DNA from: Terriglobia bacterium | Lineage (GTDB): Bacteria > Acidobacteriota > Terriglobia > Acidiferrales > UBA7541 | NCBI GenBank assembly: GCA_963819015.1 | Contig: CAWFUN010000007.1 | Location: forward strand, 677,741 to 741,740 | Length of the DNA stretch: 64,000 bases | Direction: 5' to 3' | In this document: positions 15,480 to 36,763 of the stretch, one piece after another | Layout: each line of letters opens with the position of its first letter | Numbering within the stretch: the stretch's first letter is position 1 | Made by a program: the position numbers and the translations under genes | The notes under the pieces: model-generated | Database searches by the model: none | What the model was told of the DNA's origin: nothing | What the model saw: only the letters and a program-made list of their open reading frames with translations

Positions 15480-15596
15480 GCGACGTGCCCTCCTGCGATT
15501 GCCGCCCCTGAACGGCCGGCAGATGACAGGCGATTGGGCGCAAGCGAGTCGCGCGGGGCCGCGCGAGCGCGACTGAATCGCGGGTGACTCTAGTTG

Positions 15597-15670
15597 TGGG
15601 CCCGCCAGGACTCGAACCTGGGACCAACGGATTATGAGTCCGCCGCTCTAACCGGCTGAGCTACGGGCCC
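15597..15670 (-). tRNA. tRNA-Met (anticodon CAT)
   Basis: Reverse complement folds as a cloverleaf: acceptor GGGCCCG/CGGGCCC, D-arm GCTCAGCCGGTTAGAGC, anticodon arm GCGGA-CTCATAA-TCCGT (CAT), T-arm CCAGGTTCGAGTCCTGG, discriminator A. CCA is not encoded. Confidence 0.85.
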
Positions 15671-20953: not shown

Positions 20954-21092
20954 TCTCGTCTTCCATTATATAAGAGCCATTTCTTCGCTCGAAACAAACG
21001 AAGCACGCGCGGTTCCTGCCAGGTTTCGGCAGGCGGTTAGTGACCCGCCTTCCCGTGCTCGGGATGTTCCATCGCCTGCCGCGGCGGACTTC

Positions 21093-21220
21093 GGCGCGGC
21101 AAGCCCGCCACCTGCCGCTGCGGGTGAACTGCGTCCAGGCTCTGGGCTGCGGCGCGACAAGCCCGCCACCTGCCGCTGCGGGTGAACTGCGTCCAGGCTC
21201 TGGGCTGCGGCGCGACAAGC
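21093..21220. repeat. 58-bp tandem direct repeat, 2.2 copies
   Basis: ggcgcg[g/a]caagcccgccacctgccgctgcgggtgaactgcgtccaggctctgggctgc at 21093-21150 and 21151-21208 (1 mismatch), a partial third copy from 21209, and a distal fragment ggcgcggcaagcgagggac at 21305-21323. Contiguous with no spacers, so not CRISPR. Confidence 0.6.
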
Positions 21221-21385: not shown

Positions 21386-21524
21386 ATGTATCTGCTGAAT
21401 CCAAAGGGGTTACGGGCAAAAATCGTGGATCTGCTGATTCTAAAGGGTTTAAAGTCCTTTGTTTTCAACATCATAAGAAAATGCTTGTAAGTGCTGAATC
21501 TAAAGGACTTAAAGTCCTTTGCTG
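21386..21524. repeat. AT-rich region with three iterated ctgctgaatc[c/t]aaagg motifs and near-palindromic aaaggacttaaagtccttt; candidate operator/iterons at the left edge of the R-M island
   Basis: atctgctgaatccaaagggg (21390), atctgctgattctaaagggtttaaagtcctttg (21429-21461) and agtgctgaatctaaaggacttaaagtcctttg (21490-21521). Local GC is well below the window average. Confidence 0.4.
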
Positions 21525-21760: not shown

Positions 21761-22453
21761 TCAGAGTTCGCCGCGAAAGGCTTTCGAGAGGATCGAAGGC
21801 ATGAGGGCGTCGAGATCGGCAGAGACTTCAGGGTCGGGATTCTCGAATACGTCTCGCAACTCGGCATTGACGGCGACCTCGTGATCCTTCTGCCATAACA
21901 AGTATTCGCCCGATACCCAAAGATAGTGGTCCAAATCCCGATTGGAAAACTGGTGGTCTATATTCGTTCTGAGATTCTCGAAGTTCGCAAAAAAAGCCAA
22001 ATAGGGATGATCCTTATTGGAGGCGTAGTTGCCTTTTCCCAGGTGTAGCCTGACCATGCGAACGGAATATGAATCCATGATTGGAAATCGTTCCGCGTCT
22101 ATGAAGAAGTGAGCAAATTTTGAGGCAAAGCTATGGAAGTGCGGATACTTCTTCCCTGCTTCCTCAGGAAGGCACGCAAGAGTTTCGACCAACTCAGGTC
22201 CGGGGCTCGCTAGACTGTGTTTCTCAAGAACCTCCGAGACGTGGAGCGCCACTGGCACGATGGCTATGACGTTCGTGCCGTAAAGCGCGTTTATGACAGT
22301 GGCTTTGATGAGCGCTTCGCGCGGAGCGAAGCCGGGAAGTTGTAGGGACACCCATGCAAGGGCTTCATCTTTTAGCTTCCACTGTTGAAGACTGCTGTGG
22401 AGTCGTTTGGCTGCCTCAAGCTGGCCTGGTTGAATTGGTATCGAGGCGGGCAT
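21761..22453 (-). CDS. hypothetical protein translationally coupled to hsdS; C-terminal 17 aa identical to the HsdS C-terminus; possible HEPN-like Rx4H
   Basis: 230 aa. Its ATG overlaps the hsdS TAA (TAATG). The last ~60 nt (21761-21820) are 90% identical to the hsdS 3' end (22453-22512), so both proteins end LDALMPSILSKAFRGEL. ENLRTNIDHQF fits Rx4H. No TRD motifs. Low GC. Confidence 0.5.
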   Translation of the reverse strand: MPASIPIQPGQLEAAKRLHSSLQQWKLKDEALAWVSLQLPGFAPREALIKATVINALYGTNVIAIVPVALHVSEVLEKHSLASPGPELVETLACLPEEAGKKYPHFHSFASKFAHFFIDAERFPIMDSYSVRMVRLHLGKGNYASNKDHPYLAFFANFENLRTNIDHQFSNRDLDHYLWVSGEYLLWQKDHEVAVNAELRDVFENPDPEVSADLDALMPSILSKAFRGEL

Positions 22454-23635
22454 TAGAGTTCGCCGCGAAAGGCTTTGGAGAGGATGGAGGGCATTAGGGC
22501 GTCGAGTTCGGCGGCGCTGTGAGTTTGAAGTTGCTCCAGAGCTTCGAGTTTCTTGTACAGGTCATCGAGTTCTAACACAGACTGTCTTTGCTCGTCCGGC
22601 GTTGGCACCGGGATCGCAAAATCGAGGAGCTTTTCCGTTTCGAGCTTTCGAGTGTCGTGTGTCGATTTTTCGATGAGGTCAAGTAGGCGCGGATTGAGTG
22701 CCCAAATACAAGTGCACAGGTATTCCGGCAAGATTTCCTCGTTGGGTACCATTGCCTTAATGTCTTGATTGATCGCGGCTGGAACTCTCAGTATCGCTGC
22801 CGGAACTGTGTGAGCGAGAATCATCCCGCGGACCACTATTAACACGGAGTTAGGATCAAGCAGTTTGGCATTTGTTTCCCGGGTGGCTGTTTCAGAGATA
22901 TGATCCTGGGAATTGTAGAGTTCGCGCACCTTCATGTCCTTTGGTGAAATCCAGGGGGTGGAACCACTCCAGTACATTGGATTCGATTTGCTCGGGGTGC
23001 CTCCTCCTTTTAGCGACACGAGATCGCGTAGCCGTTTGACTACCGCCTGTGTTGAGTTTTTGAGAAGTTGCTCTGCAGCCCTCTGCCAAAGGCGGAGACG
23101 CTCTGTTTGAGCCTCGGCGCGGAGTGTTTGGGTCTGTGCGAATTTTCTCAGCTAATTCCTCGATGCGAGAGACGATGCGGCGTTGTTCGTCGAGGGAAGG
23201 AAGGGGAACCTCACTCTTCAGAAACCCCTCAGGCTGTAGGCGAACCCTGTTTGTGGTTCCCTCGCTCGCCGCTTTGCAGGCATCAACGAATTCAGCCGTG
23301 CCGAAGTACGCGTCGAGGAAGGCGGGAACGGCAGACTGTAAATTGACTGCGAACGCCCAAAAGTCATTGGTTACGATCGCCCCATCCAATTCTAGTGGCA
23401 CGATGCCAATTGCGCCGTTGCGAGCATCGATGCGAGAGAGCAGAACCTGACCCTGGCGAACTTGCCATTGCCTGGTGGTTCGTATGGCCGATCCGAGTTT
23501 TTCGCCCCTAAGCACCACTCCCTTGTGGAAGAGGCGCACGGTTACCTGCTTGTATGTTTCATGAGGAGCGATCGCGACACTATCCTGGACGCGGGTCAGA
23601 ACACTCGCTAGCGATCGTTTCGGGTAGGCCCTCAT
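22453..23635 (-). pseudogene. hsdS: Type I restriction-modification specificity subunit HsdS, interrupted by a -1 frameshift in the central conserved region (~23135-23150)
   Basis: Frame A (22892..23635) gives TRD1 plus LPSLDEQRRIVSRIEELAEKI and then nonsense. Frame B (22453..23019, extendable upstream) gives ...AQTQTLRAEAQTERLRLWQRAAEQLLKNSTQAVVKRLRDLVSLKGGGTPSKSNPMYWSGSTPWISPKDM (TRD2) ending LPSILSKAFRGEL. Confidence 0.75.
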
Positions 23636-23640
23636 ACAGG

Positions 23641-25204
23641 TTACTTGCGAAGGGCGGCTTGGATTTCTTCAACCAGGGCCAGAATATGCCGCTCCTTAGC
23701 GCATAAGTCGTCTACGAGTTTCCCGGGTGGCATGTGCTCAAAGTCTTCTTTGGCATTCGGGTTCTTGATGTCGAGATTGGCGGATACAACCGCACCCTGT
23801 TCATCGTACTTCAGAACAGTCGAGACGGGCACTTTCCAGGCAAGCTCGTTCTCTTGGCGTTTGCCCCACCACTCTAGGCACGGCTCAAATTCCTCGAATC
23901 GCATGGTTTGTGTTTTCGTGTAATTTTTCCGGCCCTCGGGGAGGGGTTGCTCGTAATACCAAATCTCCTTGGTTGGTCCCGAGCGGTCAAAGAAGAGAAG
24001 ATTTGTCGGGATATTCGTATAGGGTGCGAAAACTCCGTTCGGCAATCGGACGATCGTATGGAGGTTGAATTCTTTGAGAAGCTCTTCCTTGATGCGCGCG
24101 CAAATACCGTCGCCGAACAGTACGCCGTTCGGCACAACCATGCCGCAGCGGCCCGGCTTTGCGCCTCCCACCGGGCGGCGAAGTTTGCGCATGATGAGCT
24201 GGAGGAATAGAAGGGCGGTCTCGGCGGTCTTCTTGTCCTCGGGGAAATTCGAGAGGATCCCGCGCTCTTCCTCGCCGCCAAAGGGCGGATTGGTCATGAT
24301 GATGTCCACGCGGTCCTTGTCCCCGATTTCGCGCAAGGGAAAGCGGAGGGCGTTTTCTGGATCAATGTCCGGCGATTCCAGGCCGTGGAGCAGGAGGTTC
24401 ATCTGGCATAGCAGGTAAGGAAGCGACTTCGGTTCGATTCCGAAAAGGGTGCCCTTCTGCAGCCGATTGAAGTCTTCCGTCTTCTTGCATTGCTCTTGCA
24501 GGTGCGTAAATGCTTCGACGAGAAAGCCGCCCGTGCCCGCCGCAGGGTCGAGGATGGTTTCGCCCAGGCGGGGATTCAAGACGGAGACGATGAATTTGAC
24601 AACGGGACGCGGCGTGTAGAATTCACCGGAATCGCCCGCCGAGTCTCGCATTTCGCGGAGCATGGACTCGTAGAGCAAGCCTAGCGTGTGGATTTCATCT
24701 TTGGACGTGAAGTGGATTTCATTGATTTTGTTGACCACATCGCGGAGGAGGTAGCCGTTGGTCATGCGGTTGAACGTGCCCTGGAAAACCTTGGCGATCA
24801 CGTCGCGGCGGTCACCGTTTGCGCTGCGCAGCGAACGCAGATAAGCAAAGAGGCCCGTCGCCACGCTTGCCGTCCGGGCGGATGGCTTCGTCCTGATTGA
24901 TGAAGGCGATTAGCTCTGGGCCGGTGATGCCCATCGGGTTCGCAGCCCAATCGCGCCAGCGGTAGGGCGGTTCGATGGCGGGGCGGAAGCGCTTGCCGGC
25001 GAGTTTGGCTTCTTCGGCGCGGATGCTCTCCATGTCATCAAGGAACTTGAGGAACATGATCCAGGTGAGCATCGGCAGGCGGTCAAGGTCGCCGTTGAGG
25101 CCTTTGTCCTTGCGCATGATGTCGCGGCAGGATTTGACAATGGAAGCGAGCTGCTGGGCGGTGGATTGCGGGAGTTCCTTGTTGCTGTTTTTTGTTCGGG
25201 CCAT
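23641..25204 (-). pseudogene. hsdM: Type I R-M methyltransferase subunit HsdM, interrupted by a +1 frameshift in a GGG run (~24854-24856)
   Basis: N-terminal HsdM_N domain in ORF 24812..25204 (...FINQDEAIRPDGKRGDGP then nonsense). The catalytic part is in ORF 23641..24864 (GLFAYLRSL...NPPFG...), offset by one nucleotide. Removing one G from gacGGGcct restores ...KRGDGLFAYLRSL. Confidence 0.75.
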
Positions 25205-27522
25205 AGGTGTCTAGTTAGGGCTGCGTAGAGGAGCGTCTGCAATTCGTCCACGGCCGCGCGCAGCATTTCCGCGCCGCCGAACATTTGCGAAATCTCCATC
25301 ACGCTGCCTCGATCTGAAATCGGCGGCACTTTCAGAATCTCCGGGATGGCGAATTGCGCCGTGCCATAGTCTACATACTTATCGAGAATATCGTGCAAGA
25401 CTTCGCGGGCTTTTTCGGAATACCGCTCGAAGAAGGCCTTCTGTTCTTTCCGAAGCCGTTCGGCGCGCTCTCGGCGCGTGCGAATCGGGGCGCTGTAAGC
25501 GACCTGGCAGAGAAGATCGAACGGGTCCGCGTCCGGTTGGTTTGATGCAGCGATGAGTTCTTCGAGCGCAATGCCGCGCTCTTCCAGGGCCTGAATGATT
25601 TCAGCGCGTTGGTCGGCGTCAGACCATTTTGAGCGGAGATCCGCCGCGGAGGGGCACATACTCGCGCACTTTCTCGCCCGTGTAGTCCGTGAAGCGGACG
25701 ACGCGAAGCTGCTTGCCTTCGGCATCCAGTTCGGAAACGAAGTGGGCCACGATTTCGATGGAACCCTGGTCCACGTAAAATTTGCGGGGCGCTTGTTCCT
25801 TCTTGCCTCCGGGTTCGAGGATTTGCGGCGGCAAGGGATCGGCGATGACTTCCTCGGGCTTTTCGATGTCGGCTTTGACGTTCTCGCCTGCGGCGTTCAT
25901 TTCCTCGACGGTCACCAAAGCGGGTTCGCCATCGAAATCGGGATCGGAGAAAAGGCGCGTGGCGCTTCCGGTGTAATCGAGGATGTTGAAAAAGAGCTTG
26001 CCGTAGTCGTCCTTGACGCGGGTGCCGCGTCCGATGATCTGCTTGAATTCGGTCATCGAGTTGATGATGCGAGCGATGACGATGTTCTTGCAGGTTTGAA
26101 CATCCACGCCGGTGGTCAGAAGTTGAGAAGTAGTGACAATCGTTGGGGTTGCAGTCTCAAGCTCCATGAAGCGGTCTAAGTGGCCGCGTCCCGTTTTGCC
26201 TTCATCCGCGGTGATGCGGACAACGTAATCCGGGTATTGCTGGACCAAATCCGCGTTGAGATTGTTGAGAGCGTGGCGCATGTCTTCGGCGTGTTCCTGG
26301 TCAACGCAAAAGACGATGGTTTTGTCGAATCTCCCATTCGCTTTCAGAAAATCGGTGAGATTGCGGGCGATGGTTTCGGTGCGAGGGAGGAGAGAGACTT
26401 TGCGCTCAAAATCCTTGGTGGTGTATTCGGCGTCCGGGATTTCGCGCCCTAAGCGGTCAAGCTGGCCACGATTCGGCCGCCAGCCAACGGAATCGGCGCT
26501 GGTGACGATGCGATGGACGCGATAGGGCGCCAGGAAACCGTCTTCGATGCCCTGCCGCAAGCTGTAGGTGTAGAGCGGATTGCCGAAGTAGAGATACGTG
26601 TCGCGGTTGTCTTCGCGCTTCGGGGTGGCGGTCATGCCGAGCTGGAAGGCAGGCTCGAAATACTTCAGGATATCTTTCCAGTTGGAATCGTCGGCTGCGC
26701 TGCCGCGGTGGCACTCGTCCACGACGATGAGGTCAAAGAAATCCCTCGGGTAGTCACGGTAAAGGCCGGGGCGGCGTTCGTCTTTGGCGATCGCCTGATA
26801 GGTCGCGAAATACATCTCGCGGCTCTTGATGGCCTCGCCCTCGATCTTGTGCCGGGCGTCGCCAAAGGGGGTAAAGATTTTGTCCTTGGGGTCGTCCACG
26901 AGGATGTTGCGGTCGGCAAGATAGAGAATGCGAGGACGGCGTGCTGGATCACCAGTCCGATTCCATTTGGTGTTCCAGAGTTTGTAGCAAATCTGGAAGG
27001 CGACGACGGTCTTGCCGGTGCCCGTGGCAAGGGTGAGAAGAACGCGCTTCTGGCCCTGAAGAATGGCGCGGATGGCGCTGTTGATGGCGATCTCTTGGTA
27101 GTAGCGCGGCGATTTTCCGGAGAGATGGTAGTACGGGGTGAGAAGGCGTTCGACGATCTGGCTGGGGATGTTTTCGCCGTGCTTGAGGCGCTGCCAGAGT
27201 TCGTCGGGAGACGGGAAGCTTTCGAGAGTGCTGTTCGAGGCCGGTCAGTGAAATCGTGCTCGACGATGCCGTGGCCGTTGGTGGAGTAGGCAAACTTCAG
27301 ACCAAGGATTTGTGCGTACTCCATCGCCTGGCCGAGACCATCGGCGGGTTTCTTGTAGTCGGCCTTGGCTTCAACGATGGCGATTGCAAAGTCAGGGCGG
27401 TAGCGGAGGAGATAGTCGGCGCGCTTCTGTTTGCGGCGGATCGTGCGGTTGCCAGCGACGACGATCCGGCCATCGGTGAAAGTCCGCTGCTCGTTGATGT
27501 GGTCGTCCGTCCCAGCCTGCAC
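25204..27522 (-). pseudogene. hsdR: Type I restriction enzyme R subunit HsdR (EcoEI-like C-terminal domain family), with at least two frameshifts (~27240-27250 and ~25650-25655)
   Basis: Three consecutive frames carry collinear HsdR sequence: the N-terminal nuclease domain (ORF 26665..27522, real up to NGHGIVEHDFT); the helicase core (frame of 25619..26899, which extends upstream to STLESFPSPDELWQRL...YYQEIAINSAIRAILQGQKRVLLTLATGTGKT, VVDECHR, QLLTTGVDV, QIIGRGTR); and the C-terminal domain (ORF 24910..25725 from SAADLRSKWSDADQRAEIIQALEERG... to ELQTLLYA). That frame then reads through the hsdM start with no stop. Confidence 0.75.
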
Positions 27523-27654
27523 GCGTAGAGCTTCGGGAGGACATATTTTCGACAGGTGTCTGCTTCGGTGAGTAAAGGCATGCCTCTGATATCAGCGCCG
27601 CTCGAATTACGACGGCGAATAGTATGGGTTCGAGTAATGCAGGATAACACGCCG

Positions 27655-28640: not shown

Positions 28641-29810
28641 TTACTCCGTGAAGACGATGCCCACCGCCGCTTGATCTTTCTCCGGCCCCGGCTCGATGCG
28701 CACGACGTACGCCCGCAGCCGCATCGGCACGTTTTCCTGCCCGGGCTCCGCTGTGCTTTCGATCATCACGTGCAGCTCGGACTGCAGCTTCGGGCTATGG
28801 TCCAGGTAGATCATCGCGCCGTGCAAACTCAAATTGCGGATGACGGTGTCTTCCTCGAACGCCAGCCCGTCCCCCGTAAACCCGGTGACGTGCGCGCGGA
28901 AACTCGCTTCGCGCCGCAGCCCTTCGCGTACGGTCGGGATCACGACCCCGAACTTCCGCTCCCCCAGCGTGAGCACCATGCCCTCCGTCGCCGCCCATAC
29001 GCTCTCGAATTGCCCGCGCGCCTCCCTCAGAATCTCGTCCACGGCGCGGTCGGAGGAATCCGGATCGTGGTGAAACAGCACGAGGTTTCGCACGCCCACT
29101 TCCTGCGCGATGCGCACGCCCTCTAGCCAGCTCGAATGTCCCCAACCCTTGCGCGCCGTCGCGAGCTGCTGCGGCGTGAATTGCGCGTCGTGCACGAAGA
29201 TATCCGCGCCCTCCGCCAGCTCCCGCAAACTCTTGTCGAGCTTGGGGTCGCCCGGCTCGTTGTCCGTGGCATACACGACCGTTCCCACCGGCGTCTCAAA
29301 CCGGAATCCCAGGCATCCCTGCGGGTGATTCAGCCAGCGCGTGGTCACGCGCGCCCCGCACACCTCGAACCGCTCGCCGCCGTCCACTTCGGTGAATTCG
29401 CGCGACGCCGACATCGCGCTCAAATCCACGGGAAAATACGGATTGGCCATCTGCGCTTCGAAGACGCGCTTCAGACTGTCCGGCCCCAGCGATGGCGAGC
29501 GAAAACTGTAGAAGTGAAAACGATTCTCTCCCGCGTAGAGCGGCGAAAAAAATGGAATCCCCTGAATGTGGTCCCAGTGGTAGTGCGTCAGGAAGATGTG
29601 CGCGTTGGTTTCACGGCCGCCGCGATTCGCGGTCCAGTGCTTTCCGAGCGTCCGCAACCCGGTTCCGCAATCGAGAATGAACCGCGCGCCGGACGGAGTC
29701 TCCAGCTCCAGGCAAGGCGTGTTCCCGCCGTAGCGCCACGTCGCGCGGTCAACGGTCGGAGTGGATCCCCGCACGCCCCAGAAACTCAATTTGGCGATGG
29801 CTTCGGGCAT
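28641..29810 (-). CDS. MBL-fold metallo-hydrolase fused to a C-terminal PilZ domain
   Basis: N-terminal beta-lactamase-fold signature FLTHYHWDHIQG (HxHxDH) and ATDNEPGD. The C-terminal ~110 aa (RREASFRAHVTGF...RNLSLHGAMIYLD...RAYVVRIE) has the PilZ pattern (RxxxR ... D/NxSxxG). Confidence 0.65.
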   Translation of the reverse strand: MPEAIAKLSFWGVRGSTPTVDRATWRYGGNTPCLELETPSGARFILDCGTGLRTLGKHWTANRGGRETNAHIFLTHYHWDHIQGIPFFSPLYAGENRFHFYSFRSPSLGPDSLKRVFEAQMANPYFPVDLSAMSASREFTEVDGGERFEVCGARVTTRWLNHPQGCLGFRFETPVGTVVYATDNEPGDPKLDKSLRELAEGADIFVHDAQFTPQQLATARKGWGHSSWLEGVRIAQEVGVRNLVLFHHDPDSSDRAVDEILREARGQFESVWAATEGMVLTLGERKFGVVIPTVREGLRREASFRAHVTGFTGDGLAFEEDTVIRNLSLHGAMIYLDHSPKLQSELHVMIESTAEPGQENVPMRLRAYVVRIEPGPEKDQAAVGIVFTE

Positions 29811-35752: not shown

Positions 35753-36763
35753 TCAGCCGGCGGCGAAGCGCACGGTCGCCGTGGTAAAAAGCGACGAAGT
35801 ATCTTCTGCAATTCGTTTGCGGGCGAGTTTGAAGTAATGCTCGTCAATCTCGTAACCGATGCTGTTCCGACCCCATTTCGCAGCCGCGACGGTCGTCGTT
35901 CCCGTGCCCAGGAATGGGTCAAGCACCGTGTCACCGACGAAGCTGAACATGCGAATCAGTCTCTCAGCGAGCTCCGTCGGAAATGGCGCAGGGTGATGCT
36001 TCGTCGAAGCGCCCGTCAGACCGTTCCAGATTTGCTGGAACCATTTCTTGTGATTTTCCGCCGAAATCAAACTTAGAATTTTCGTCGGAATGTCGGGAGC
36101 GCGATACCCGCCCGGTTTGCGCTCCATCAGGATAAACTCGATGTCGTTCTTGATCACCGCGTTCGGCTCGTAGGGTTTGCCGAGAAATCCCGAGCCGCCT
36201 TCCACCTCATAGGCCGCATTGGCGATCTTGTGCCAGATAATCGGCGCGAGATTGTCGAATCCAATTTTCCGGCAATGCTCTTGGATGGACGCATGCAGCG
36301 GAACAACCGTGTGTCGACCTCCGTTCTCTCTGCGTGAGAGACACACGTCCCCCACCACGCAAATCAAACGCCCGCCCGGGACCAGGGCTCCGAAACTGTG
36401 CTTCCAGACTTTGTCTAGTTCATGAAGGAATTGGTCGTAATCCTCAATGTGACCAAGCTGCGAGTCGTTGTCCCTGTACTCCTTCAGCGTCCAATAAGGC
36501 GGCGACGTCAATATGAGATGCACGCTCCCGGGCTCGACGCTCTCCATCTCGCGCGCATCGCCCAAATGCAGTTCGTGTCTTGTGGGAATCGATTGGACGG
36601 CCCGCTCAATCCGCCGCACCGACTGTTCGTCCTTCGCCAGCCGCGGAATATCCTCCTGCGCGTCGCCCAGTTCTCGCAGCTCAGTCGGAACAAATGAAGA
36701 CAGGTCAGCAATCGTCGTTTCCGGCGAATCATCAATCGGCTTGCGCTTCGCGGCTACATGCAT
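35753..36763 (-). CDS. DNA methyltransferase, beta-class (N4-cytosine/N6-adenine); SPPY catalytic motif precedes the FxGxGTT SAM motif
   Basis: 336 aa; LILTSPPYW (motif IV) near the N-terminus and DPFLGTGTTTVAA (motif I) near the C-terminus, a circularly permuted beta-class order. SPPY is typical of N4C MTases (inference). Confidence 0.85.
   Translation of the reverse strand: MHVAAKRKPIDDSPETTIADLSSFVPTELRELGDAQEDIPRLAKDEQSVRRIERAVQSIPTRHELHLGDAREMESVEPGSVHLILTSPPYWTLKEYRDNDSQLGHIEDYDQFLHELDKVWKHSFGALVPGGRLICVVGDVCLSRRENGGRHTVVPLHASIQEHCRKIGFDNLAPIIWHKIANAAYEVEGGSGFLGKPYEPNAVIKNDIEFILMERKPGGYRAPDIPTKILSLISAENHKKWFQQIWNGLTGASTKHHPAPFPTELAERLIRMFSFVGDTVLDPFLGTGTTTVAAAKWGRNSIGYEIDEHYFKLARKRIAEDTSSLFTTATVRFAAG

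What the first reader, a model, noticed from the sequence alone, without database searches (positions are those of the whole stretch)
21761..27522. Low-GC Type I R-M island in which hsdR, hsdM and hsdS are each broken by single-nucleotide frameshifts
Collinear HsdR (nuclease N-domain, SF2 helicase core, C-terminal domain), HsdM (HsdM_N + NPPFG catalytic domain) and HsdS (TRD1, central coiled coil, TRD2, conserved C-terminus) are all present. Each is split across frames by 1-nt indels: hsdR at ~27240-27250 and ~25650-25655 (a G4 run), hsdM at ~24854-24856 (a G3 run), and hsdS at ~23135-23150. The hsdR C-terminal frame also runs 295 nt into hsdM without a stop. Each fragment is still free of internal stops and the protein motifs are intact, so inactivation looks recent, or the indels are homopolymer sequencing errors. 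No other gene in the 64 kb shows this. The island GC (roughly 45-55%) contrasts with ~65% elsewhere, consistent with horizontal acquisition and possibly selection against an active restriction system.
Basis: partly seen in the sequence, partly recalled or inferred. Interest (0 to 1): 0.6.

Follow-up and report, generated by a model that had tools for sequence, protein, structure and literature searches.

The report
Type I restriction operon with probable assembly frameshifts
This is an ordinary Type I restriction-modification operon whose eight reading-frame breaks are all one-base insertions with no other damage, which looks more like a long-read assembly error than real gene decay.

Summary
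A minus-strand operon hsdR–hsdM–hsdS (EcoAI/EcoEI family, Type IB) plus an undescribed fourth gene lies at 27581–21761. It has eight frame disruptions, not four: six in hsdR, one in hsdM, one in hsdS.

All eight are +1 insertions. At least three cannot be homopolymer slips. One sits just before the hsdR stop codon, which explains the 295-nt read-through into hsdM.

Removing them gives a 786-aa HsdR, the same length as intact relatives of 93–94% identity. It has no stop codons and no change at 225 invariant columns. Nineteen flanking genes give end-to-end Pfam matches.

Two other Flye-named ENA contigs carry the same operon family with 36–40 single-base insertions and equally undamaged proteins. 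In one of them, 25 of 27 inserted bases equal an alternative allele at the adjacent polymorphic position (P≈3e-7). The window scores 4 of 4.

Best reading (~0.6): consensus artefacts in a long-read metagenome assembly, where both alleles of a SNP were kept. The hsdS insertion also occurs in an independent k-mer assembly and may be real.

The GC contrast is small: 56% against 60%. Either way the finding is ordinary.

The fourth gene is a side lead. Its predicted fold resembles HhH DNA glycosylases and it ends in an HsdS-like tail.

The parts
25215..27581 (-). hsdR, Type IB (EcoAI/EcoEI family) restriction subunit. It reads as 786 aa after six extra bases are removed. As deposited it is split over four frame segments.
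   Evidence: blastx against intact homologs shows frames 3>2>1>2. The repaired protein equals the length of P0001/P0002, 93-94% identity and 100% coverage. NF046051 gives 1046 bits. Motifs LATGTGKT, DECH and IVEAKA are visible in the translation.
27507..27520 (-). Two +1 insertions in the hsdR N-terminus (T[G]CA at about 27520; G[G]AC at about 27507), net +2.
27233..27247 (-). Two +1 insertions 14 nt apart (CAC[T]GAC at 27247; GAA[C]AGC at 27233).
25662..25662 (-). +1 insertion in GCG[A]GTATG, between the helicase and the EcoEI_R_C domain. It is not in the nearby C4 run.
25215..25220 (-). Extra C in GCC[C]TAA. It pushes the hsdR stop codon (TAA at 25217-25215) out of frame and causes the 295-nt read-through into hsdM.
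23641..25204 (-). hsdM, N6-adenine methyltransferase subunit. It reads as 520 aa after one extra base is removed. Motifs DPAAGTGGF and NPPFGG are present.
   Evidence: Pfam HsdM_N and N6_Mtase, 203 bits. Repaired translation. 88-90% identity to L001/L002/L004.
24854..24857 (-). +1 insertion in hsdM, GA[C]GGG. It is either a C at 24857 or one G of the GGG at 24856-24854.
22453..23635 (-). hsdS specificity subunit: TRD1, central conserved helix, TRD2 and conserved C-terminus. It reads as 393 aa after one extra base is removed.
   Evidence: Pfam Methylase_S twice. Repaired translation. Collinear with the intact hsdS of L090.
23130..23137 (-). +1 insertion at the start of the central conserved region of hsdS (7 nt ACAGACC where relatives have 6). 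The extra base is also present in Logan contig L081.
21761..22453 (-). orf230, the fourth gene. Its ATG overlaps the hsdS stop (TAATG). It is all-alpha with a fold resembling HhH-GPD glycosylases. Its last ~20 aa copy the HsdS C-terminus.
21763..21820 (.). 58-nt direct repeat copy 1 (3' end of orf230), 91% identical to the 3' end of hsdS.
22455..22512 (.). 58-nt direct repeat copy 2 (3' end of hsdS).

Best explanation
The locus is a complete Type IB (EcoAI/EcoEI-family) restriction-modification operon, hsdR-hsdM-hsdS, with a co-transcribed accessory gene. The coding information is undamaged.

The frameshifts, at least the seven in hsdR and hsdM, are most likely errors of the consensus step of a long-read (Flye-type, Nanopore-only) metagenome assembly. 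This operon family occurs in many co-occurring soil bacteria at 80-95% nucleotide identity. Inferred step: reads from more than one variant are piled up on this stretch. Where the variants differ by a single base, the consensus keeps both alleles in tandem. This gives a +1 insertion, while the unique flanks are called cleanly.

Shown: the insertions, their type, the absence of any substitution damage, and the same signature in other contigs. Inferred: the read mixture and the assembler's behaviour.

The hsdS insertion is also seen in a k-mer assembly of an ENA run. It could therefore be a real mutation or a recurrent basecalling error.
For: (1) All eight disruptions are +1 insertions with no deletions. 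At least three (27520, 27247, 25662) cannot be read as homopolymer slips.

(2) There is no decay at the substitution level. No stop codons occur. The repaired HsdR deviates at 0 of 225 invariant columns and at 1 of 388 columns that are at least 95% conserved; the median for 119 intact homologs is 3. HsdM deviates at 1 of 148, median 1. dN/dS against L001 and L004 is about 0.04.

(3) The repaired lengths match intact relatives: 786 aa, equal to P0001 and P0002.

(4) The breaks are confined to the operon. Nineteen flanking genes, about 22 kb, give end-to-end Pfam matches. Eight events in 5.8 kb against none in 22 kb gives (5.8/27.8)^8, about 4e-6 (my arithmetic). None falls in the strain-specific TRDs or in orf230.

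(5) The events cluster in pairs 13-14 nt apart, twice.

(6) In the four unambiguous sites the inserted base equals an allele present in homologs at the adjacent column: 4 of 4, null 0.37-0.47, P = 0.02-0.05.

(7) The same phenomenon appears at higher density in other ENA assemblies with Flye-style contig names. L088 (ERZ25039467 contig_21444) has 36 single-base insertions against 11 deletions in 4.2 kb. L089 (ERZ25039512 contig_106624) has 40 against 12. Intact controls have equal numbers of each. In L088, 25 of 27 non-duplicative insertions match a neighbouring homolog allele (P = 3.4e-7). After projection its HsdR has no stops and deviates at only 2 of 386 conserved columns. That cannot be natural decay.

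(8) The exact 407-aa and 426-aa fragments are on record in NCBI/ENA on a 757,857-bp contig. A contig that size from soil implies a long-read assembly. The Microflora Danica long-read pipeline is Flye plus one round of Medaka, with no short-read polishing (PMC12313526).
Against: Logan contig L081 is a de Bruijn assembly of run ERR11594403. It carries the same extra base in hsdS. A k-mer assembler cannot merge alleles, so at that site the base is in at least two reads.

Five of the eight sites can also be read as +1 in a run of 1-2 identical bases, which natural slippage could produce. Real decay of this operon family does occur in short-read MAGs, for example the +2 duplications in L029.

The platform and pipeline of the source contig and of ERR11594403 could not be verified. 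No reads were available, so the read mixture is inferred. With only four unambiguous sites, the allele-match test on the window itself is weak (P about 0.02-0.05).
Confidence: 0.6

Rival explanations
1. Genuine, very recent pseudogenisation. The operon was inactivated, for example first by the hsdS frameshift, and then picked up further real +1 insertions in hsdR and hsdM.
For: The hsdS insertion is shared by an independently assembled contig. That contig differs by a SNP next to the site and carries a further 2-bp deletion in hsdM. Restriction-modification genes are often found decayed; see L029, L034 and L020. Five of the eight sites can be read as short-run slippage.
Against: Eight indels came with no accompanying substitution damage: 0 of 225 invariant HsdR columns changed and no stops. 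From general knowledge, not measured here, bacteria show roughly 10 substitutions per indel. At that ratio about 20 changes at conserved HsdR columns would be expected, and even a 3:1 ratio predicts several. All events are +1 with no deletions. At least three cannot be slippage. Inserted bases match neighbouring alleles. The TRDs and orf230 are spared. L081's other differences from the window are of the homopolymer-junction type, so it may itself derive from Nanopore reads.
Confidence: 0.27
2. Random or homopolymer-type sequencing error typical of the platform, unrelated to strain mixture.
For: The source is probably a long-read-only assembly (PMC12313526). L081 shows junction-type miscalls.
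Against: Random error should be spread over the contig, yet about 22 kb of flanking genes are clean. The runs involved are 1-3 bases long, not long homopolymers. L088 has nearly identical local sequence at the window's sites and does not show the same insertions, so the events are not set by sequence context.
Confidence: 0.1
3. A regulated state: phase variation, or programmed +1 ribosomal frameshifting that restores the proteins.
For: Some Type I systems are known to be phase-variable through repeat tracts or hsdS inversion (general knowledge).
Against: No repeat tract lies at any site, and TRF finds none in the genes. There are no inverted hsdS copies and no recombinase. Eight separate sites with no shared motif cannot be one recoding signal. 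Intact homologs lack them.
Confidence: 0.02

Closest known systems
Type IB restriction-modification systems (EcoAI / EcoEI family)
   Same: Gene order is hsdR-hsdM-hsdS. HsdR has an N-terminal PD-(D/E)XK nuclease, an SF2 helicase core and the EcoEI_R_C domain. HsdM has NPPF and AdoMet motifs. HsdS has two TRDs and conserved central and C-terminal regions. NF046051 matches end to end.
   Different: As deposited, all three genes are out of frame at eight places. An extra gene is fused onto the operon's 3' end.
Frameshift errors in long-read-only metagenome assemblies (the reason for Illumina polishing or frameshift-correction tools)
   Same: Indel-only damage to otherwise perfect genes, on a very long contig. 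Related Flye-named contigs show the same pattern.
   Different: The errors are not the classical long-homopolymer deletions. They are +1 insertions that duplicate a SNP as two adjacent bases. They concentrate in one community-shared operon rather than along the whole contig.
Decayed restriction-modification operons (pseudogenes)
   Same: Frame-disrupted hsd genes. Real examples exist in this family: L029 (+2 duplications), L034 (4-nt tandem duplication) and L020 (deletion).
   Different: No stop codons, no loss of conserved residues, no deletions.
Defence-associated HhH DNA glycosylases (Dag proteins; bioRxiv 10.1101/2025.10.29.685425) and Brig1 (PMC11078745) - relevant to orf230 only
   Different: No sequence-level link was shown, and Foldseek was not significant. 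The HsdS-like C-terminal tail and the position directly behind hsdS are not described for Dag proteins in the text I read.

Membership tests
Type I R-M, family IB (EcoAI/EcoEI) | hsdR, hsdM and hsdS encoded together and collinear with single subunits | tested here: met
   blastx and DNA alignment to intact operons L001-L013 and L090
Type I R-M, family IB (EcoAI/EcoEI) | HsdR reaches the curated family score, with nuclease, SF2 helicase and EcoEI_R_C domains | tested here: met
Type I R-M, family IB (EcoAI/EcoEI) | HsdM is a gamma-class N6-adenine methyltransferase with NPPF and an AdoMet-binding motif | tested here: met
   PF02384 at 203 bits. NPPFGG and DPAAGTGGF are present in the translation.
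Type I R-M, family IB (EcoAI/EcoEI) | HsdS has two target-recognition domains separated by conserved helices | tested here: met
   PF01420 hits twice: TRD2 at 45 bits, TRD1 at 17.9 bits, below the cutoff of 22. The repaired 393-aa protein is collinear with the L090 HsdS.
Type I R-M, family IB (EcoAI/EcoEI) | Uninterrupted reading frames, so that the system can be expressed | tested here: not met
   Eight +1 insertions in the deposited sequence
Type I R-M, family IB (EcoAI/EcoEI) | Bipartite target motif methylated in the host genome | not testable with these tools
   Needs raw-signal or modified-base data
Naturally decaying pseudogene | Relaxed constraint: stop codons, or changes at conserved residues | tested here: not met
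   No stops. HsdR changes at 0 of 225 invariant columns and 1 of 388 conserved columns (median of intact homologs 3). HsdM changes at 1 of 148.
Naturally decaying pseudogene | Disruptions reproducible in independent read sets | tested here: inconclusive
   Only the hsdS site is covered by a second assembly (L081). Its platform is unknown. No other contig carrying the 426-aa hsdR fragment was on record. A search with the out-of-frame tails returned no near-identical protein.
Long-read consensus artefact (both alleles of a SNP retained) | Indel-only damage limited to sequence shared with other community members, with clean unique flanks | tested here: met
   No event falls in the TRDs or orf230.
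Long-read consensus artefact (both alleles of a SNP retained) | Inserted base equals an alternative allele at the adjacent polymorphic column | tested here: met
   Window 4 of 4 (P = 0.02-0.05). L088 25 of 27 (P = 3.4e-7). L089 17 of 25 (P = 0.03).
Long-read consensus artefact (both alleles of a SNP retained) | Source is a long-read-only assembly, and the reads show two single-base alleles at each site | not testable with these tools
   Only indirect evidence: a 757,857-bp contig in NCBI/ENA. No reads were available.
Phase-variable Type I system | Simple-sequence tract in an hsd gene, or invertible hsdS copies with a recombinase | tested here: not met
   No tandem repeat inside the genes. Runs at the sites are at most 3-4 nt. 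The only hsdS-related repeat is a direct 58-nt one, and no recombinase is present.
HhH-GPD DNA glycosylase superfamily (orf230) | HhH-GPD fold | tested here: inconclusive
   [not shown]
HhH-GPD DNA glycosylase superfamily (orf230) | Catalytic Lys in the hairpin and an Asp about 15-20 residues later, after a Gly/Pro-rich loop | tested here: inconclusive
   K112 and P124 are invariant and D127 is at least 90% conserved in 36 family members. Their equivalence to the catalytic residues is inferred from the motif pattern, not from a superposition.

The most novel reading that the evidence does not exclude
The fourth gene, orf230, belongs to a widespread family of about 220-235 aa; about 790 representatives at 50% identity matched it. 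The family may be a defence-associated HhH-type DNA glycosylase that is physically tied to Type I systems. The gene sits 0-18 nt behind an EcoAI-type hsdS in at least a third of the metagenome loci examined. It is translationally coupled here. Many members end in a copy of the HsdS C-terminal helix (LDALMPSILxKAFRGEL). That tail could dock the protein onto the methylase/restriction complex. Alternatively it could serve as the homology arm by which the cassette spreads between hsdS 3' ends.
Probability: 0.2. Interest if true: 0.55.

Novelty: already known. Interest (0 to 1): 0.15.

Why it matters
For the genome scan, this is a warning rather than a discovery. In long-read-only metagenome assemblies, an operon shared by many community members can be riddled with +1 insertions while the rest of the contig is clean. 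Such loci will be annotated as pseudogenes or 'inactivated defence systems' when they are probably intact. The signature found here gives a reference-free way to flag them: only +1 insertions, inserted base equal to the neighbouring allele, and no loss of conserved residues. If the frameshifts are real after all, it is a routine case of a decaying restriction system. The only part with some biological promise is the glycosylase-like gene attached to hsdS.

Tried and rejected
1. Exact-product look-ups gave nothing. These covered the flanking gene 28641-29810, the 130-aa HsdM N-fragment, and the 426-aa and 407-aa fragments. The first attempts on the 426-aa and 407-aa fragments may have failed because GTG starts were translated as V. 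The listing of cluster members later showed both fragments are on record on a 757,857-bp NCBI/ENA contig, but that contig could not be fetched.

2. P0123, the representative of the HsdM fragment's cluster, turned out to be an unrelated truncated hsdM remnant in six Logan contigs. It was not informative.

3. I searched with a concatenation of the out-of-frame tails to find other assemblies of the same frameshifted allele. It returned no near-identical hit. It did lead to the multiply frameshifted ENA homologs P0138-P0140.

4. No near-identical intact allele (above 95% identity) of HsdR exists among the listed hits; the best is 94%. A direct 'repaired twin' comparison was therefore impossible.

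5. dN/dS on the window's branch is uninformative about a short neutral period, because dS to the nearest relatives is 0.7-2.

6. I looked for a shared sequence motif around the eight sites, such as a methylation motif causing miscalls, and found none. L088 has the same local sequence without the insertions.

7. ERR11594403 could not be found in papers or supplements.

8. The afdb50 fold library was unavailable.

9. My first impression that the insertions match homolog alleles needed a null model. Chance is 0.37-0.47, so the window alone gives only P of about 0.02-0.05.
Full report
**What is there**

On the minus strand, from 27581 to 21761, lie four tightly packed genes. hsdR runs from the ATG at 27581 to its stop TAA at 25217-25215. 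hsdM is at 25204-23641, and hsdS at 23635-22453. A 230-codon gene, orf230, is at 22453-21761, and its ATG overlaps the hsdS stop (TAATG).

Pfam finds HSDR_N_2, ResIII/SWI2_SNF2/Helicase_C and EcoEI_R_C in the hsdR pieces. It finds HsdM_N and N6_Mtase (203 bits) in the hsdM pieces, and Methylase_S in both hsdS pieces.

GC content is 56.3% for the island and 60.0% for the rest of the window.

**Placing the breaks**

I fetched 80 loci encoding relatives of HsdM. I compared them with the window by blastx and by DNA alignment with six intact operons. Later I also used L090, a JGI contig with the same four-gene operon intact, 81% identical over 5.8 kb.

The window has eight frame disruptions, not four. 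In hsdR:
- about 27520 (T[G]CA)
- about 27507 (G[G]AC)
- 27247 (CAC[T]GAC)
- 27233 (GAA[C]AGC)
- 25662 (GCG[A]GTATG)
- an extra C in GCC[C]TAA at 25220-25218

The last one pushes the stop codon out of frame.

hsdM has one disruption at GA[C]GGG (24857-24854). hsdS has one, in seven bases ACAGACC (23137-23131) where relatives have six.

Every event is a +1 insertion, and there are no deletions. Three sites (27520, 27247, 25662) cannot be read as extending a run of identical bases. The other five could be +1 in a run of one or two bases. The events also form two pairs 13-14 nt apart.

**The coding information is undamaged**

Deleting the eight bases gives HsdR of 786 aa, HsdM of 520 aa and HsdS of 393 aa, with no stop codons.

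The repaired HsdR has the same length as the best intact database proteins (P0001 and P0002, 93-94% identity, 100% coverage). It scores 1046 bits end to end against NCBIfam NF046051, 'EcoAI/FtnUII family type I restriction enzyme subunit R' (cutoff 550).

In an alignment with 119 intact homologs, it differs at none of 225 invariant columns. It differs at 1 of 388 columns that are at least 95% conserved. Intact homologs themselves differ at a median of 3, range 0-14. HsdM differs at 1 of 148 conserved columns, median 1. dN/dS against the closest relatives is about 0.04.

Natural decay long enough to collect eight indels should also bring many substitutions. From general knowledge, not measured here, the ratio is roughly ten per indel. 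There is no trace of them.

**The breaks are confined to the operon**

Nineteen genes on both sides, about 22 kb, give end-to-end Pfam matches. They include enolase, cytochrome bd subunits I and II, iPGM, RecQ, UDP-glucose dehydrogenase and an MFS transporter.

Within the operon, none of the eight events lies in the strain-specific TRDs or in orf230. All lie in sequence that is conserved across the family.

**Provenance**

The exact 407-aa and 426-aa fragments are on record in NCBI/ENA on a 757,857-bp contig. So the frameshifts are in the deposited assembly, and the contig size points to a long-read assembly.

The closest loci come largely from Danish soil long-read MAGs. That project used Flye plus one round of Medaka, with no short-read polishing (PMC12313526). 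I could not confirm that the window belongs to that project.

**The same signature elsewhere, much stronger**

A search with the out-of-frame tails returned three ENA proteins that weave in and out of frame. Two were fetched: L088 (ERZ25039467 contig_21444) and L089 (ERZ25039512 contig_106624).

- Against intact relatives, L088 has 36 single-base insertions and 11 deletions in 4.2 kb of hsdR-hsdM.
- L089 has 40 insertions and 12 deletions.
- Intact controls have equal small numbers of each.
- In L088 only 4 of 36 insertions duplicate a neighbouring base, 29 of 36 are G or C, and 30 of 36 touch a third codon position.
- Neighbouring genes in L088, such as a 586-aa TPP enzyme and a 413-aa radical SAM protein, are whole.
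- Projected onto an intact homolog, the L088 HsdR has no stops and differs at only 2 of 386 conserved columns.

Dozens of indels with no other damage cannot be evolution. It is an indel-only error process.

In L088, 25 of 27 non-duplicative insertions equal an allele that homologs carry at the adjacent column. The chance rate is 0.46, giving P = 3.4e-7. The consensus appears to have written both alleles of a SNP one after the other.

The window's four unambiguous sites all behave the same way (4 of 4; P = 0.02-0.05). L089 gives 17 of 25 (P = 0.03).

L088 has almost the same local sequence at the window's sites but lacks those insertions. The events are therefore not fixed by sequence context. 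They depend on the sample.

**Most likely mechanism**

This operon family is present in many co-occurring soil bacteria at 80-95% identity. I infer that reads from more than one variant were used for the consensus of this stretch, and that SNPs were turned into +1 insertions. The unique flanks and TRDs were called from one genome only. The read mixture and the assembler behaviour are inferred, not shown.

**What argues against it**

Logan contig L081 is a k-mer assembly of run ERR11594403. It equals window 24294-21715 at 99.69% identity and has the same extra base in hsdS, with a G/A difference next to it. A de Bruijn graph cannot merge alleles, so at this site the base is in the reads.

L081's other differences from the window are of the homopolymer-junction type (CAACCCC>CAAACCC, GCCAAG>GCCCAG, and a 2-bp loss in a CT-rich stretch). 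All but one lie in its first 440 nt, inside hsdM. This suggests Nanopore origin and a second hsdM haplotype, but I could not verify the platform.

The hsdS break may therefore be a real mutation or a recurrent miscall at CC|AAA. Real decay of this family does occur in short-read MAGs, as in L029 with two +2 duplications.

**Other readings**

Phase variation or programmed frameshifting is not supported. There are no repeat tracts, no inverted hsdS copies and no recombinase. The eight sites share no motif.

**The fourth gene**

orf230 has no hit in the local Pfam copy, in NCBIfam or in PADLOC apart from its tail. The Logan record lists PF27257 (HI_0787_N).

It belongs to a family with about 790 representatives at 50% identity, typically 215-235 aa. 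N55, A110, K112, P124, Y151 and D175 are invariant, and the family shares the motif SFASKFAHFF...ERFPIxD.

The last ~20 residues copy the HsdS C-terminus, as they do in many family members. A 58-nt direct repeat, 91% identical, brackets the gene. In 16 of 50 metagenome loci with enough upstream sequence, an EcoAI-type hsdS ends 0-18 nt upstream on the same strand.

HhH-superfamily glycosylases acting in phage defence have been described (bioRxiv 10.1101/2025.10.29.685425; Brig1, PMC11078745). orf230 may be one of that kind, attached to Type I systems. This is a lead, not a result.

**Verdict**

The sequence observation is real and larger than reported. The biological reading 'recently inactivated island' is less likely than an assembly artefact. 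I put about 0.6 on the haplotype-merge artefact, about 0.27 on real decay, and the remainder on other error types. Either way the locus is an ordinary Type IB system. Interest is low, and the useful product is a recognisable error signature.

Noticed in passing
[not shown]
   Followed up: partly
window 21763-21820 and 22455-22512: A 58-nt direct repeat (91% identical) formed by the 3' ends of orf230 and hsdS brackets the orf230 body. This suggests the cassette arrived or spreads by recombination at the conserved hsdS 3' end.
   Followed up: partly
L088 6400-10600; L089 7900-12000; protein P0140: Other ENA contigs with Flye-style names carry the same operon family with 36-40 single-base insertions but undamaged protein sequence and largely intact flanks. 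This looks like a recurrent, operon-specific consensus artefact that would be annotated as pseudogenes.
   Followed up: yes
L081 positions 180-440 (= window about 24115-23855): The Logan contig differs from the window by five substitutions and a 2-bp deletion within about 240 bp of hsdM, but by only one base in the remaining 2.1 kb. This points to a second hsdM haplotype or to Nanopore junction errors in that run.
   Followed up: partly
window 21086-21220 and 21387-21521: The intergenic region between the island and the MFS transporter gene holds a 58-nt tandem repeat (2.2 copies, 98% matches) and three copies of a ~26-44-nt unit with hairpin potential. Function unknown.
   Followed up: no
window 35753-36763 (minus): A second DNA methyltransferase gene (PF01555 N6_N4_Mtase, full-length match) lies elsewhere in the window. 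It could supply methylation independent of the Type I system.
   Followed up: no
L029 6738-6815; L034 about 5327: The short-read MAG locus L029 has two +2 duplications (CC, GA) in hsdR, and L034 has a 4-nt tandem duplication (CTAC). These look like genuine inactivating mutations of the same operon family.
   Followed up: partly
window 15596-15670 (minus): tRNA-Met (CAT) is the only RNA gene detected in the window by ARAGORN and Rfam. It is not adjacent to the island, so it does not mark an integration site.
   Followed up: no
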